Positions 16,944-20,000 of a DNA stretch of 20,000 nt are shown piece after piece. The DNA is taken from the IMG/VR virus record IMGVR_UViG_3300010362_000013; one strand, given 5' to 3'. The notes beneath the pieces were generated by a model that was given only the letters and a program-made list of their open reading frames with translations, made no database searches and was not told where the DNA came from. Source of the DNA: an uncultured virus (IMG/VR IMGVR_UViG_3300010362_000013) (lineage: Duplodnaviria; Heunggongvirae; Uroviricota; Caudoviricetes). The position numbers and the translations under genes were made by a program. Numbering within the stretch: position 1 is the first letter of the stretch; each line of letters starts with the position of its first letter.

Positions 16944-17393
16944 TCAGACCGCTCCGTACATCATGAAGTTGCCACCCGCGCAGGAGTTCTGAAACTCGCC
17001 GAGTTCGATGATCTTGCCGTCATTTAGCATTCTTGACAGCATCGCATCGGACTCACTTTCGGGCACACCGTACTTCTCAAGTGTGCTGCGCAGATAGCTC
17101 CAACCCTTGCCGGTGCCCTTGCGGTAGCGGCCCTTGCCGCGCACCTCAAGGTGCTGCCAATCGGTGAACGGCTCGGGCGCATGCTCCTCAAGCATGACTT
17201 CACGGTAAAGCCATTCGTATTGCTCGTCCGGTGTGCCGATGTCGGCAAGTTTGAAGGGACGTAGTACCAGCCCGCCGTCGTTACCGACAAGCACGGTGAG
17301 CATATCGCTTTGGTAGGATCGACCGCGCTCGTCAATGGTGACGGCATCGATCTGCTGCTGTAGCAGCAAGCGCGAGACAGGGATTGTCTGCAT
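16944..17393 (-). CDS. hypothetical protein (149 aa)
   Basis: ORF track; same strand as neighbours, fills the gap. Confidence 0.8.
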   Translation of the reverse strand: MQTIPVSRLLLQQQIDAVTIDERGRSYQSDMLTVLVGNDGGLVLRPFKLADIGTPDEQYEWLYREVMLEEHAPEPFTDWQHLEVRGKGRYRKGTGKGWSYLRSTLEKYGVPESESDAMLSRMLNDGKIIELGEFQNSCAGGNFMMYGAV

Positions 17394-17503: not shown

Positions 17504-17914
17504 CTACTCGCCCTGCTTGAGGGAGGCGACGAGATCGGCGCGCAGTTCCTCGCGCTCACGCTCGCGCTTCTTGGCAGCCTCGTTGATTCCGAAGTGTGAG
17601 AATGTGCTGAGGACAGCAGCGACAACGCCCCAGATCCAAGCGTCAGAGAAGCCAGCAGCGCCAGCGAACGCGAAGAACAGCGCAGCGACGCCGAACACGA
17701 CGCGAGCGACCTTCGGCTTGGCGTAAACGAATGCAGCAGCGATGAACATCAACAGTGCTGCGAACATGCCGAATGCGCCAGCGGACGTTGTGGACGACGG
17801 ATCGGCCTTGTCCTCAAGGCTGTCGGAAACTGACGACAGTGTGTAGACAGCGGACGCCTGAATGCCGCTGACGATGGAGAGAACGATGCCGAGGATGAGC
17901 GTAGTGATACGCAT
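17504..17914 (-). CDS. integral membrane protein (about 4 TM, 136 aa)
   Basis: Four hydrophobic segments and a charged C-terminal helix. Confidence 0.85.
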   Translation of the reverse strand: MRITTLILGIVLSIVSGIQASAVYTLSSVSDSLEDKADPSSTTSAGAFGMFAALLMFIAAAFVYAKPKVARVVFGVAALFFAFAGAAGFSDAWIWGVVAAVLSTFSHFGINEAAKKREREREELRADLVASLKQGE

Positions 17915-17997: not shown

Positions 17998-18390
17998 CTA
18001 GAGCGCCTTGACGGTGATGCGCAGCCGCTCGGGCTGACCGATCTCGTTCCAGTGATCCTGCGCGAGATAGAACGGGGAGAAGCCGCGCTCGTTCTCGTCG
18101 TGGAAGCGGACGCCGCCGTTGCCCCTCGGCATCTGGGCGACGATGAACGTGCCAGTCACGCTGTCCTTGTCATTGTTGACAACCGGCTCGGCCTTTGGCG
18201 CGGCAGGCTTGCGAGTGCGCTTCGGCGCAGGCTTCGGCGTCTCGGCCTTGGCCGCACCGCGCGTCCGCTTGGTGGCGGGCTTGGTGGCCTTCTTGGTGGT
18301 CGCCTTGATCGGCGCGACCGCCGTGCCCTCAAGCGCGGCGTTGACCTCATCCACGATGGACTCGATCTTCTTGGTGCTCATACGAGCCAT
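17998..18390 (-). CDS. histone-like, K/A/P/T-rich putative DNA-binding protein (130 aa)
   Basis: Start 18390 (TAGGAGG SD); ATTKKATKPATKRTRGAAKAETPKPAPKRTRKPAAPK followed by a compact beta-rich C-terminal domain. Confidence 0.75.
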   Translation of the reverse strand: MARMSTKKIESIVDEVNAALEGTAVAPIKATTKKATKPATKRTRGAAKAETPKPAPKRTRKPAAPKAEPVVNNDKDSVTGTFIVAQMPRGNGGVRFHDENERGFSPFYLAQDHWNEIGQPERLRITVKAL

Positions 18391-18686: not shown

Positions 18687-18860
18687 TTACTCCTTGGGCT
18701 TGGGAACGTTGTTGACAACCCACTCACGGTCGGCAGGCTTGGAGATATTCGGGCACACAAACCATTTGTGGAAGTGGTACGGGATTGCGTTGACACGCAC
18801 GCGCTGCCACATACTGCCGTAGCAGACTTTGCACCACTCTTTACGGTGCGGGTGATCCAT
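18687..18860 (-). CDS. hypothetical protein (57 aa, MDHPHRKEWCKVCYGSMW...), absent from the ORF track
   Basis: Read manually; AAGGAG SD; CxxC plus His/Cys. Confidence 0.7.
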   Translation of the reverse strand: MDHPHRKEWCKVCYGSMWQRVRVNAIPYHFHKWFVCPNISKPADREWVVNNVPKPKE

Positions 18861-18901
18861 TTTTCTGCTCCTTTGCAGGGATTTTGGGCAGCGCCAGTGT
18901 C

Positions 18902-19066
18902 TTACGCGGGGGAGATTCCGGCTAGCCAGTTGGCGCGGTTGACCATTGAGAACAGTGTTCCCTCGTCAACTGTACTCCAAGTGTCACCATACAGGCGCAC
19001 TTGTACGACCCATAGGTGAGGGTTGACAGGATGCGTGACGCACCGCGTTTGCAGTGGCTCATCCAT
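18902..19066 (-). CDS. hypothetical protein (54 aa, MDEPLQTR...)
   Basis: AAGGAGG SD followed by TGTCAACA-ATG. Confidence 0.7.
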   Translation of the reverse strand: MDEPLQTRCVTHPVNPHLWVVQVRLYGDTWSTVDEGTLFSMVNRANWLAGISPA

Positions 19067-19202
19067 TGTTGACAGGCACCTCCTTGACGGTAAAGAAGCC
19101 GTCCTCGGTGATATCCGCGATGCACTGCGCGGGATCTTCACCTTCGGGGAAGGTGACAACGGCCATGCGGCGACCGTTGCGGAGAATCTCAAACTTGCGC
19201 AT
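19059..19202 (-). CDS. hypothetical protein (47 aa, MRKFEILR...)
   Basis: AGGAG SD followed by TGTCAACA-ATG. Confidence 0.7.
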   Translation of the reverse strand: MRKFEILRNGRRMAVVTFPEGEDPAQCIADITEDGFFTVKEVPVNNG

Positions 19203-19215
19203 TGTTGACACTCTC

Positions 19216-19350
19216 CTAGCGCGTTTGTGTGTGGGCGGGAACGTTCTCATGATGCGGATGGACACCGCACGCGGCTAACGTCATAGCGCCAGCGGGCATG
19301 CCTAACGTGATTGCGACGATCACGGCTAGCGGGAACTTGTGGCTACGCAT
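19216..19350 (-). CDS. very small putative lipoprotein (44 aa, MRSHKFPLAVIVAITLGMPAGAMTLAACG...)
   Basis: AAGGA SD followed by TGTCAACA-ATG; hydrophobic signal and LAAC lipobox. Confidence 0.6.
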   Translation of the reverse strand: MRSHKFPLAVIVAITLGMPAGAMTLAACGVHPHHENVPAHTQTR

Positions 19351-19388
19351 TGTTGACACATCCTTTGTTGCGTTTTGCAGGGGAAAAA

Positions 19389-19458
19389 CGCGCCGCGCGG
19401 GAATCGAACCCGCCCGATTCACTGTAAACAACAGCGAATCGTGCCATATTGGCGGCGC
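19389..19458 (-). ncRNA. tRNA-like element lacking the D-arm (possible anticodon GUU, Asn-like; no encoded CCA)
   Basis: Perfect 7-bp acceptor stem GCGCCGC/GCGGCGC, canonical T-arm GCGGG-UUCGAUU-CCCGC, 9-10-bp central stem GAUUCGCUG(U)/(A)CAGUGAAUC, and an 11-nt linker in place of the D-arm; intergenic. Confidence 0.65.
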
Positions 19459-19469
19459 AGTAATGGTGA

Positions 19470-19718
19470 CTACGCGGTGTGGACGCCGGACAGGTCGATG
19501 CCCAGTTCCTCCGCAGCGCGGAGCAGATCGTCGTCGTCGTCAACGCGAGCGACGATGCCAACGGCGTTGGCGGGGTTCACGACCTTGATTCCAAGGTCGG
19601 CAAGCGCGCGATGGCGCTTGTGGTTCGTGCGCATGGTGGACTGAGCCACTGCGCGGTCGGCACGGCGGGAAGCCGCCGCGTTCTGAGCAGCGGTGCGCCG
19701 CTCACGCTTGGACAGCAT
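19470..19718 (-). CDS. hypothetical protein (82 aa; basic N-terminus, acidic C-terminus)
   Basis: ORF track; AAAGGAG SD after an A/C-rich leader. Confidence 0.8.
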   Translation of the reverse strand: MLSKRERRTAAQNAAASRRADRAVAQSTMRTNHKRHRALADLGIKVVNPANAVGIVARVDDDDDLLRAAEELGIDLSGVHTA

Positions 19719-19843
19719 AGCTGTCGCTCCTTTGGGTTGGTTTTTGGTGGAAAGTTGCTGCGATCATCCGTAGAATGATGGGAGGATTATTGACACAGCC
19801 TATGGTGGCCGCGCAATAATCCTCCGCTCACCCTAGCCGGAGG

Positions 19844-20000
19844 CTAGTAGCGATGCGGGGAACCGCCGAGCGGATCTTTGTCGTAAATCAGCGCCTCCCA
19901 ATCGCGCAGCGCGTCAAGCGCGGCAATGGTAGCGCTACCGGTACCGGCGGCGGGATCGAACGGGTTCGTACCCTCAGCCAGTTCGTCCGTAAGGACGGGA
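19844..20000 (-). CDS. hypothetical protein, partial C-terminus (...PVLTDELAEGTNPFDPAAGTGSATIAALDALRDWEALIYDKDPLGGSPHRY)
   Basis: Read manually; the frame is open from the window edge to TAG at 19844. Confidence 0.6.
   Translation of the reverse strand, partial: PVLTDELAEGTNPFDPAAGTGSATIAALDALRDWEALIYDKDPLGGSPHRY

What the first reader, a model, noticed from the sequence alone, without database searches (positions are those of the whole stretch)
19389..19458. D-armless tRNA-like RNA with an extended anticodon stem
Seen on the minus RNA: GCGCCGC-CAAUAUGGCAC-GAUUCGCUG-UUGUUUA-CAGUGAAUC-GG-GCGGG-UUCGAUU-CCCGC-GCGGCGC-G. It has a perfect acceptor stem and T-arm, an 11-nt linker replacing the D-arm, and a 9-bp stem with a 7-nt loop. 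That loop places U33 and anticodon GUU. The discriminator is G, as in tRNA-Asn, but position 37 is U and no CCA is encoded. Established: D-armless forms with longer anticodon stems occur in animal mitochondrial tRNA-Ser(GCU), and the tmRNA tRNA-like domain also lacks a D-stem. There is no G3:U70 pair or tag ORF here, so it is not tmRNA. All stems are intact, which argues against simple decay. Inference: a non-canonical phage tRNA mimic acting as an anticodon-nuclease decoy, an RNase P/Z processing signal, or a minimal functional tRNA.
Basis: partly seen in the sequence, partly recalled or inferred. Interest (0 to 1): 0.8.

Follow-up and report, generated by a model that had tools for sequence, protein, structure and literature searches.

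The report
Rewired phage tRNA lacking a D-stem
An uncultured soil phage carries one odd transfer-RNA gene in which the usual D-arm is replaced by a lengthened anticodon helix; the structure is real and neatly built, but it has no known relatives and no expression data, so its job is unproven.

Summary
Window 19389-19458 (minus strand) is a 70-nt tRNA-derived gene. It sits in a 119-nt gap between two small genes of a phage-like soil contig. ARAGORN calls it tRNA-Asn(GTT), against 1 call in 200 shuffled windows. Rfam does not reach threshold.

There is no D-stem. The 3' D-stem strand plus position 26 (CGAUU) pairs perfectly with the variable region (AAUCG). This extends the anticodon stem to 10 bp, the length of the normal anticodon-stem/26:44/D-stem stack. 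The 10-nt linker reads as positions 8-9 plus an 8-nt D-loop with A14, G18G19 and A21 in register.

The acceptor stem, variable region and T-arm most resemble the tRNA-Asp(GUC) of Streptomyces phages. The anticodon is GUU with G73. However, G1-C72 and U37 do not fit tRNA-Asn.

No homologue was found in IMG/VR, the JGI metagenomes, GenBank phages or the closest 108-kb relative, so covariation cannot be tested.

Best reading (about 0.5): a maintained, processed tRNA-shaped RNA, probably acting in the phage-host contest over tRNAs. Main rival (about 0.33): a freshly broken tRNA relic.

This element is a more extreme form.

The parts
19389..19458 (-). whole 70-nt tRNA-derived element (element position i = window 19459 - i)
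   Evidence: Sequence read. ARAGORN tRNA-Asn(gtt). Fold. Self-match to model R1 of 105.9 bits on the minus strand against 16.1 bits on the plus strand.
19452..19458 (-). acceptor stem, 5' strand GCGCCGC (positions 1-7)
   Evidence: Seven Watson-Crick pairs with 19390-19396. The inner pair C7-G63 has probability only 0.37, because G6C7C8 can alternatively pair with G14G15C16.
19442..19451 (-). 10-nt linker CA + AUAUGGCA (equivalent to positions 8-9 plus an 8-nt D-loop with A14, G18G19, A21)
   Evidence: Direct reading. Compared with the D-loops AATCGGTA and AATGGCA of phage tRNA-Asn genes.
19432..19441 (-). 5' strand of the 10-bp helix CGAUU-CGCUG (3' D-stem strand, position 26, and anticodon stem 27-31)
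   Evidence: Pair probabilities 0.83 to 1.0.
19425..19431 (-). 7-nt anticodon loop UUGUUUA; anticodon GUU at 19427-19429; U33 present, U at position 37
   Evidence: U37 occurs in 0 of 98 reference tRNAs.
19415..19424 (-). 3' strand of the 10-bp helix CAGUG-AAUCG (anticodon stem 39-43 plus the variable region, which takes the place of D-stem strand 10-13)
   Evidence: The run of contiguous pairs is 10 here, against a maximum of 8 in 68 and in 26 reference tRNAs.
19397..19414 (-). G45 connector and T-arm GCGGG-UUCGAUU-CCCGC
   Evidence: Loop and 5' strand match Streptomyces-phage tRNA-Asp (3' strand differs at the closing base, CCCGC vs CCCGT); the whole arm matches tRNA-Gly.
19389..19396 (-). 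acceptor stem 3' strand GCGGCGC and discriminator G (19389)
19384..19388 (-). UUUUU run directly after the discriminator; no CCA encoded
   Evidence: The consensus scan reported no terminator-like site in 18800-20000.
19470..19718 (-). upstream 82-aa orphan gene (arginine-rich N-terminus); its stop codon lies 11 nt before the element
   Evidence: Translation. The only match among 5.8 billion proteins is itself. No family found.
19216..19350 (-). downstream 44-aa ORF (signal-peptide/lipobox-like); its ATG lies 38 nt after the element and is preceded by GTGTCAACA

Best explanation
The element is a tRNA gene of actinophage type whose core has been rewired.

Shown from the sequence: the 5' strand of the D-stem is absent. 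The 3' D-stem strand plus position 26 (CGAUU) pairs with the variable region (AAUCG). This makes one continuous 10-bp helix, as long as the normal anticodon-stem/26:44/D-stem stack. A complete D-loop-like linker (A14, G18G19, A21) and a canonical T-loop remain, so an elbow could still form. The top half and the variable region resemble phage tRNA-Asp. The anticodon is GUU and the discriminator is G73.

Inferred: it is transcribed with the flanking minus-strand genes, cut out by RNase P and RNase Z or exonucleases, and given CCA. It is kept by selection as a tRNA-shaped RNA and is not a dead relic.

Most likely role (inference from published phage tRNA biology): it acts in the contest over host tRNAs. 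It may be an AAY-reading tRNA that anticodon-arm nucleases cannot recognise, or a non-cleavable look-alike that competes for such enzymes. U37 and the altered 3' side of the loop remove the U36-A37-A38-U39 motif that the PARIS nuclease AriB shares among its targets, which include tRNA-Asn(GUU).
For: - Non-random tRNA signal: 1 ARAGORN call in 200 shuffles and z = -5.07.
- It lies exactly in an intergenic gap, on the strand of all genes, 11 nt after a stop codon.
- The single G.U pair means the fold is good only for the minus-strand RNA: 105.9 against 16.1 bits.
- All 22 stem pairs are intact.
- Five perfect extra pairs join CGAUU to AAUCG. Contiguous pairing from the anticodon loop is 10 here, against at most 8 in 68 tRNAs and in 26 Gilson tRNAs.
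- Linker length and the A14/G18G19/A21 register fit positions 8-9 plus an 8-nt D-loop (direct reading; compare).
- The acceptor stem shares 6 of 7 pairs with Gilson tRNA-Asp. The seventh pair differs on both sides yet still pairs. The variable region reads ATCGG against ATCAG. The complementary strand therefore appears to have been fitted to an older variable region.
- Streptomyces-phage tRNAs already show 6-7-bp anticodon stems with 3-4-nt variable loops, so this looks like the end of a trend.
- In Gilson, single tRNAs sit scattered between small ORFs, the same arrangement as here.
- Literature: E. coli HisRS, EF-Tu and the ribosome accept a D-armless tRNA (PMC11551756, abstract and section 27 read). 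Phage tRNAs carry anticodon-loop changes predicted to evade nucleases (PMC10264068, part 1 of 3 of the text read). AriB targets tRNA-Asn(GUU), shares the UAAU motif among its targets, and viral tRNAs may also act as inhibitors (PMC12409363, passages read).
Against: - It is a singleton. There were no matches in IMG/VR, only chance hits, and nothing in the JGI metagenomes.
- GenBank phages match only the generic 3' 30-34 nt.
- It is absent from the closest relative G002, although gene order is shared up to about 18723.
- The flanking gene is an orphan, so the region is variable and conservation or covariation cannot be shown.
- U37 occurs in 0 of 98 reference tRNAs and C8 in 4 of 98. Both would weaken decoding or folding.
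- G1-C72 with GUU does not match either of the 2 phage tRNA-Asn genes examined, both of which have U1-A72.
- Rfam scores it far below threshold.
- An alternative small hairpin (GCC/GGC) competes with the inner acceptor pairs.
Confidence: 0.5

Rival explanations
1. Fresh relic. A phage tRNA (Asp-like) suffered a 4-nt deletion of the D-stem 5' strand and several anticodon-loop substitutions, and is now non-functional. The rest still looks perfect only because too little time has passed.
For: - It is a singleton in a variable region of orphan genes.
- The closest relative has no tRNA at all.
- U37, C8 and the identity mismatch G1-C72 with GUU look like lesions.
- The presumed ancestral CA-AUCG-AUAUGG would allow a short repeat-mediated deletion (inference from the sequence).
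- Aberrant members occur in relatives' tRNA clusters, for example a tRNA with a 6-nt anticodon loop at L002:1357-1428.
Against: - It requires that CGAUU and AAUCG were complementary over 5 of 5 positions by chance, roughly 1 in 1000. No reference tRNA comes close: 0 of 94 reach 9 pairs.
- The deletion would have to remove exactly positions 10-13 and leave 8-9 and the D-loop intact.
- There are no lesions in 22 stem pairs or in the T-loop.
Confidence: 0.33
2. RNA-processing or 3'-end signal only. The acceptor/T-arm module serves as an RNase P/Z cut site, like a t-element, or acts with the U5 run as a terminator. It separates the upstream 82-aa gene from the downstream small genes, and the released RNA has no further role.
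For: It lies 11 nt after a stop codon, and a U5 run follows directly. No promoter-like site on the minus strand was reported in 18800-20000, so it is probably co-transcribed. Earlier scan notes describe phage tRNA look-alikes read this way (unchecked).
Against: A cut site needs only the acceptor/T minihelix. It does not explain a 7-nt loop with U33, a D-loop-like linker with GG in register, or a helix of exactly the anticodon/D stack length. The terminator scan reported nothing here.
Confidence: 0.1
3. DNA-level site. The 9-11-bp inverted repeat around a 5-7-bp spacer is a recombinase or repressor binding site (attP-like core) within a tRNA-derived segment.
For: Perfect inverted repeats flanking a 7-bp spacer resemble tyrosine-recombinase cores (established knowledge, recalled). 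Some relatives are proviruses: G003 lies in a Micromonospora genome.
Against: Both acceptor strands and a full T-arm are present, which an att core does not need. The arms differ at one position that gives G.U in the minus-strand RNA but C.A on the other strand. None of the 33 window ORFs scanned matched an integrase family. A host tRNA with U37 is implausible.
Confidence: 0.03

Closest known systems
tRNA-Asp(GUC) family of Streptomyces phages (e.g. Gilson gene 102, Comrade, Moab, Kenrey, CeilingFan, LuckySocke) and IMG/VR locus L219
   Same: Best sequence matches: 88% over 34 nt, E 5e-3. The acceptor stem shares 6 of 7 pairs with Gilson, and the seventh is changed on both sides. The variable region ends ATC(A/G)G. 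The T-arm is GCGGG-TTCGATT-CCCG(T/C). G73 is present and no CCA is encoded. This family is itself non-canonical: Gilson's copy fails Rfam's threshold and L219's has a 2-bp D-stem.
   Different: Those genes are 76-78 nt, have GUC, A37 and a conserved D region, and their anticodon stem does not extend (5 pairs). The element has GUU, U37, an unrelated linker and no D-stem.
Animal mitochondrial D-armless tRNA-Ser(GCU) (human structure, PMC9427863, passages read)
   Same: The D-arm is lost, and the replacement linker and variable region enter a stack that extends the anticodon stem.
   Different: The mitochondrial tRNA has a 4-nt linker with loose pairs, no tertiary core and a remodelled T-arm. This element has five perfect extra pairs, a full D-loop-like linker with GG, and a canonical T-loop. 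It is a phage gene, not an organellar one.
Engineered 'mini HisT' D-armless tRNA in E. coli (PMC11551756, abstract and section 27 read)
   Same: A tRNA without a D-arm in a bacterial system. That work shows the synthetase, EF-Tu and the ribosome can accept such a fold.
   Different: Mini HisT is artificial (bases 11-25 removed, 62 nt), weakly active and limited by PNPase. Its authors state that no natural bacterial tRNA lacking an arm is known.
Compact-core phage tRNAs (6-7-bp anticodon stem, 3-4-nt variable loop; tRNA-Pyl-like)
   Same: The anticodon stem is lengthened at the expense of the variable loop.
   Different: Those tRNAs keep a D-stem, and three of the four seen here (Gilson tRNA-Pro, tRNA-Trp and tRNA-Arg(tcg); StarPlatinum tRNA-Gly was not scored) pass RF00005. 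This element has no D-stem and a 10-bp helix.
Nuclease-evading phage tRNAs (mycobacteriophage C1 tRNAs, PMC10264068; T5 tRNA-Lys/Thr/Asn against PARIS AriB, PMC12409363)
   Same: A phage-borne tRNA with changes in the anticodon loop and 3' stem region, where such nucleases recognise or cut. tRNA-Asn(GUU) is a documented AriB target.
   Different: Those are canonical cloverleaf tRNAs with a few substitutions. No nuclease, host or phenotype is known for this element.
Dual-identity tRNAs of Streptomyces/Kitasatospora (tRNA-ProN: Asn anticodon in a Pro body; PMC10404621, abstract read)
   Same: An Asn anticodon sits in the body of another tRNA isotype, in an actinobacterial setting.
   Different: tRNA-ProN has an AUU anticodon and a Pro body, is encoded next to a special ProRS, and is canonical in fold. 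Here the body is Asp-like, and no charging was tested.

Membership tests
Canonical tRNA (Rfam RF00005 / cloverleaf) | 7-bp acceptor stem and a 5-bp T-stem with a T-loop of consensus TTCRANY | tested here: met
   GCGCCGC/GCGGCGC and GCGGG-UUCGAUU-CCCGC, all Watson-Crick.
Canonical tRNA (Rfam RF00005 / cloverleaf) | D-stem of 3-4 pairs | tested here: not met
   ARAGORN draws one Watson-Crick pair. The best 3-bp D-stem fold is 13.6 kcal/mol worse than the extended hairpin, and its pairs have probability 0.0. Of the 98 reference tRNAs, 71 parsed with a 3- or 4-pair D-stem; the other 27 were not parsed by my script.
Canonical tRNA (Rfam RF00005 / cloverleaf) | 7-nt anticodon loop with U33 and a purine at position 37 | tested here: not met
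   U33 is present, but position 37 is U. Among the 98 reference tRNAs, position 37 is A in 71, G in 24, C in 3 and U in 0.
Canonical tRNA (Rfam RF00005 / cloverleaf) | Score at or above the RF00005 gathering threshold (29 bits) | tested here: not met
   No match at gathering thresholds. The best tRNA-clan match is tRNA-Sec at 21.2 bits. For comparison, 24 of 26 ARAGORN-called Gilson tRNAs pass.
Bacterial/phage tRNA-Asn | GUU anticodon and G73 (AsnRS and non-discriminating AspRS identity set; PMC9976931, passages read) | tested here: met
   Direct reading and ARAGORN.
Bacterial/phage tRNA-Asn | U1-A72 (determinant for GatCAB amidation; G1-C72 is an antideterminant; PMC9976931) and A37 | tested here: not met
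   The element has G1-C72 and U37. Both phage tRNA-Asn genes examined (G003 provirus and Gilson) have U1-A72, a CUGUUAA loop, G73 and CCA. AsnRS family TIGR00457 was over its cut-off in 0 of 5 actinobacterial genomes that hold helicase relatives. One 188-bit match was left unresolved.
Streptomyces-phage tRNA-Asp(GUC) family | Shared acceptor stem, variable-region end and T-arm sequence | tested here: met
   In the top half, 33 of 38 positions are identical to Gilson (counted by eye). The exact 21-mer of variable region plus T-arm found 2 IMG/VR loci, one of them a tRNA-Asp(gtc).
Streptomyces-phage tRNA-Asp(GUC) family | GUC anticodon and the conserved D region (GGGRYTGCTAGGTTGTGGYCA) | tested here: not met
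   The anticodon is GUU, and the linker does not align with the family's D region.
Mitochondrial-type D-armless tRNA-Ser(GCU) | No D-arm; the linker and variable region stack onto an extended anticodon stem | tested here: met
   Predicted secondary structure only. Compared with PMC9427863.
Mitochondrial-type D-armless tRNA-Ser(GCU) | Loss of the tertiary core and a remodelled T-arm; organellar origin | tested here: not met
   The T-loop is canonical, GG is kept in the linker, and the context is a phage contig.
tmRNA tRNA-like domain | G3.U70, tag reading frame, tmRNA model match | tested here: not met
   The element has G3-C68. ARAGORN with its tmRNA option and Rfam both gave no tmRNA.
Non-decoding phage tRNA-like stable RNAs (T4 species 1, T5 RNA1 type) | tRNA-like top half with no usable anticodon loop; longer than a tRNA | not tested
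   Known to me only from recall and from unchecked notes of this scan. The element differs by having a regular 7-nt loop with U33 and a length of 70 nt.

The most novel reading that the evidence does not exclude
This would be a working, naturally occurring tRNA without a D-stem in a bacterial translation system. An Asp-type body carries the Asn anticodon. The host's non-discriminating AspRS charges it (GUU plus G73). GatCAB refuses it because of G1-C72. It then either supplies a nuclease-proof AAY decoder or deliberately inserts Asp at Asn codons during infection.
Probability: 0.08. Interest if true: 0.85.

Novelty: new variant of a known kind. Interest (0 to 1): 0.55.

Why it matters
Authors working on bacterial translation state that no natural tRNA lacking an arm is known to be used in bacteria (PMC11551756). 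A phage gene that drops the D-stem but rebuilds the same helix from the variable region would be a natural starting point for that question. It keeps the D-loop, T-loop and a readable anticodon. It would also widen the repertoire of phage tRNAs and tRNA look-alikes now being linked to escape from tRNA-cutting defences.

Standard tRNA models miss it. Similar genes are therefore probably under-counted in phage genomes.

If it is only a fresh relic, it is still a neat example of how one small deletion redirects a tRNA fold.

Tried and rejected
Homologue searches that found nothing:
- IMG/VR exact scans of the anticodon arm (25 nt) and of T-arm plus acceptor (24 nt): 0 hits each.
- IMG/VR scan of a loops-only pattern with fixed spacing: 28 hits, none with stems and none called by ARAGORN.
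- JGI metagenome scan linking the anticodon loop to the T-loop: 0 hits.
- JGI metagenome scan with the conserved 72-aa neighbour: 286 stretches matched a pattern, but none encoded a relative.
- IMG/VR scan with the 144-aa neighbour: none confirmed.
- blastn of 1.2 kb against GenBank phages: no match.
- My single-sequence model R1 against five relatives' whole records gave only weak hits (24 bits or less). Those I checked were ordinary tRNAs.
- R1 against five actinobacterial genomes: 24.4 bits or less.
- An architecture descriptor run over 2.14 Mb of fetched loci found only the window element.

Other steps without result:
- No whole genome is held for the window.
- Sequencing runs: one DNA holder (a soil metagenome) and no RNA holder listed.
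- Laying that run's contigs gave one identical contig at depth 4.7 and no variants.
- ORFs overlapping the element on either strand have no Pfam or PHROG family.
- The upstream orphan protein gave nothing usable in the Atlas or in Pfam at E <= 10.
- ARAGORN at lowered thresholds produces noise (57 calls in 37 kb), so I did not use it.

Rejected readings: tmRNA, YrlA and tRNA-Sec; a chance hairpin.

Full report
OBSERVATION

ARAGORN at default settings calls tRNA-Asn(gtt) at c[19388,19459]. On 200 dinucleotide-preserving shuffles of the window it made 1 call in all. The RNA folds at -40.2 kcal/mol against -26 +/- 2.8 for shuffles, z = -5.07. Rfam gives nothing at gathering thresholds. In E-value mode the best match in the tRNA clan is tRNA-Sec at 21.2 bits, with a threshold of 47. 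ARAGORN's tmRNA option found nothing.

CONTEXT

The window looks like part of a phage genome.
- Nearly all plausible genes lie head to tail on the minus strand.
- PHROG hits include a phage DNA helicase (E 5.5e-79) and several families of unknown function.
- The helicase's cluster record puts it on a 77,663-bp contig. One soil-metagenome run holds the DNA.
- Helicase relatives are large phages of Streptomyces and Arthrobacter at 34-36% identity, and IMG/VR viruses.
- All 80 best hits in the genome collection carry names of actinobacterial genera; the phylum assignment rests on my own knowledge. The host is therefore probably an actinobacterium. This is an inference.

The element sits in a 119-nt gap. 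It starts 11 nt after the stop codon of an 82-aa gene (19470-19718) and ends 38 nt before the ATG of a 44-aa ORF at 19350. No promoter-like site on the minus strand and no terminator-like site was reported in 18800-20000. ORFs that overlap the element match no protein family.

ANATOMY

The D-arm is truly missing. ARAGORN's D-stem has one Watson-Crick pair. The best cloverleaf, with a 3-bp A-U D-stem, scores -26.8 kcal/mol against -40.4 for the extended hairpin.

The long helix has 10 pairs, C18-G44 through G27-C35, with probabilities 0.83-1.0. U28-A34 may add an eleventh.

Read against standard tRNA numbering, the parts are as follows.
- C8 and A9 are the two connector bases.
- AUAUGGCA is an 8-nt D-loop with A14, G18G19 and A21 in register. 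Compare AATCGGTA and AATGGCA in the phage tRNA-Asn genes.
- CGAU is the 3' strand of the D-stem, and U is position 26.
- CGCUG / CAGUG is the 5-bp anticodon stem.
- The variable region A-AUCG pairs with U26 and CGAU.

So the D-stem helix is kept but with a different partner strand. The resulting 10-bp helix equals the usual stack of 5 + 1 + 4 pairs. The length fits too: 73 - 4 + 1 = 70 nt.

This degree of extension is exceptional. Contiguous pairing from the anticodon loop is 10 here. It was at most 8 in 68 tRNAs from the fetched loci and at most 8 in 26 tRNAs of phage Gilson. A descriptor for this architecture found only the window element in 2.14 Mb of fetched DNA.

The single G.U pair becomes C.A on the other strand. 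My model of the element scores 105.9 bits on the minus strand against 16.1 bits on the plus strand. The RNA therefore runs in the direction of the genes.

One caveat: G6C7C8 can pair with G14G15C16. This competes with the two inner acceptor pairs (centroid; probability of C7-G63 is 0.37).

ORIGIN

Only the 3' 30-34 nt find matches in GenBank phages. The best are tRNA-Asp(gtc) genes of Streptomyces phages such as Gilson (88% over 34 nt, E 5e-3). tRNA-Gly(tcc) genes of other Streptomyces phages come next.

In alignments:
- The acceptor stem shares 6 of 7 pairs with Gilson tRNA-Asp. The seventh pair is C-G instead of U-A, a change on both sides.
- The variable region ends ATCGG against ATCAG.
- The T-arm is the same apart from its closing pair.
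- G73 is shared.

An exact 21-mer of variable region plus T-arm found 2 IMG/VR loci. One is a tRNA-Asp(gtc) whose D-stem has only 2 pairs; the other was not called as a tRNA.

This phage tRNA-Asp family is itself unusual. Gilson's copy is one of only 2 of 26 ARAGORN-called tRNAs in that stretch that miss Rfam's threshold.

By contrast, the two phage tRNA-Asn genes I examined (the G003 provirus and Gilson) have U1-A72, a CUGUUAA loop, G73 and CCA. The body is therefore Asp-like, while the anticodon reads Asn. Streptomyces-phage tRNAs with 6-7-bp anticodon stems and 3-4-nt variable loops exist. The element looks like the far end of that trend.

SEARCH FOR HOMOLOGUES

None was found. Exact and degenerate pattern scans of IMG/VR gave nothing, or chance hits without stems. 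Both metagenome scans gave nothing.

The closest virus in IMG/VR is G002: 108 kb, 96% complete, 57% helicase identity. It shares gene order with the window up to about 18723. It has no RF00005 match, no match to my model, and no T-loop motif in the matching stretch.

The upstream 82-aa protein matches only itself among 5.8 billion proteins. Contigs of the one run that holds the DNA show a single identical sequence. Covariation, the test that would settle function, is therefore not available.

HOW IT MOST LIKELY WORKS

Shown: the gene is tRNA-derived, discrete, strand-specific and structurally coherent.

Inferred: it is co-transcribed with its neighbours, released by RNase P and RNase Z or exonucleases, and given CCA.

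I favour a maintained RNA over a relic, at about 0.5 against 0.33, for three reasons.
- A relic needs a 5-of-5 complementarity by chance. No reference tRNA comes near it.
- A relic needs a deletion of exactly positions 10-13.
- A relic should show lesions, yet none is seen in 22 stem pairs or in the T-loop.

The match of the variable region to the tRNA-Asp family also suggests that the 5' side was fitted to an older 3' side.

As to the role, recent work ties phage tRNAs to escape from tRNA-cutting defences.
- Mycobacteriophage tRNAs carry anticodon-loop changes at nuclease sites (PMC10264068, part 1 of 3 of the text read).
- The PARIS nuclease AriB cuts tRNA-Asn(GUU) among others. Its targets share U36-A37-A38-U39, and viral tRNAs may also act as inhibitors (PMC12409363, passages read).
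- The element reads U36-U37-A38-C39.
- A D-armless tRNA can be used by E. coli HisRS, EF-Tu and ribosomes (PMC11551756, abstract and section 27 read).

Against ordinary decoding:
- U37 is found in 0 of 98 reference tRNAs and C8 in 4 of 98.
- G1-C72 is the antideterminant for GatCAB amidation (PMC9976931, passages read).
- The AsnRS family TIGR00457 was over its cut-off in 0 of 5 actinobacterial genomes holding helicase relatives. One 188-bit match was left unresolved.

In such a host the element, if charged at all, would carry Asp and keep it. This leaves two live options inside the best explanation: a poor but nuclease-proof decoder, or a non-decoding look-alike. It also leaves one bold option, deliberate Asn-to-Asp decoding. 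The only precedent is the dual-identity tRNA-ProN of Streptomyces (PMC10404621, abstract read).

RIVALS

- A fresh relic (0.33).
- A mere RNase P/Z cut site or 3'-end signal (0.1). This does not explain the anticodon loop or the D-loop register.
- A DNA-level recombinase site (0.03). None of the 33 window ORFs scanned matched an integrase family, and the G.U asymmetry argues for an RNA.

COMPARISON AND NOVELTY

It works like a tRNA in shape. It fails membership tests for canonical tRNA (D-stem, purine 37, Rfam score), for tRNA-Asn (U1-A72, A37) and for the phage tRNA-Asp family (anticodon, D region).

Its nearest structural analogue is mitochondrial tRNA-Ser(GCU). That tRNA, however, has lost its core and its T-loop consensus (PMC9427863, passages read).

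A full-text search for 'D-armless' with 'phage' returned one paper, a mitochondrial review. The 2020 review of non-canonical tRNAs does not contain the word 'phage'. These two searches do not prove the architecture is unpublished.

I saw the milder form myself.

I rate this a new variant of a known kind, with interest 0.55. It is a striking and well-formed object, but a singleton without conservation or expression evidence.

Noticed in passing
window 19348-19359, 19200-19211, 19064-19075, 18171-18182 (minus strand) and others: The motif (G/C)TGTCAACAATG ends in the start codon of successive small genes. There are 20 matches with up to 2 mismatches, against 1.8 expected and at most 6 in 200 shuffles. 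It resembles the start-associated sequences of some actinophages (a recalled comparison). It is absent from the relative G002 (0 exact copies in L010 and L094).
   Followed up: partly
window 19470-19718 (minus strand): The 82-aa orphan protein directly upstream of the element has an arginine- and lysine-rich N-terminal half. It could be an RNA-binding partner of the element, but no family or fold was found.
   Followed up: partly
window 19216-19350 (minus strand): A 44-aa ORF has a signal-peptide-like start and an LAAC lipobox-like motif. It is followed by two more tiny ORFs (19059-19202 and 18902-19066), each with the start motif.
   Followed up: no
L002:1357-1428 (IMG/VR record G001, inside its tRNA cluster): A 72-nt tRNA-like gene has a normal cloverleaf but a 6-nt anticodon loop. 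ARAGORN calls it 'tRNA-???', and it is not among the RF00005 matches of that record.
   Followed up: partly
L214 (Streptomyces phage Gilson 50000-95000): 17623-17700 and 17240-17324: The annotated tRNA-Asp(gtc) and tRNA-Ser(tga) fail Rfam's tRNA threshold, while 24 other tRNAs pass. The tRNA-Asp type is conserved, with compensatory stem changes, across six Streptomyces phages. It has 3 bases between the acceptor stem and the D-stem and a 7-nt variable loop.
   Followed up: partly
L220:100-200 (IMG/VR contig of 37,962 bp): The exact variable-plus-T-arm 21-mer occurs in a stretch that ARAGORN does not call as a tRNA. It may be a tRNA 3' fragment, such as an attachment site.
   Followed up: no
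L089 / L175: IMG/VR provirus G003 (112 kb, helicase 45% identical) is the same DNA as a stretch of the Micromonospora costi genome. It carries an array of at least 16 tRNA genes within 2.2 kb.
   Followed up: no
window 19821-19843 (minus strand): The hairpin CCUCCG...CGGAGG, followed by AUUAUUG, lies just after the stop codon of the gene that ends at 19844. It may be a terminator, but the consensus scan did not report it.
   Followed up: no
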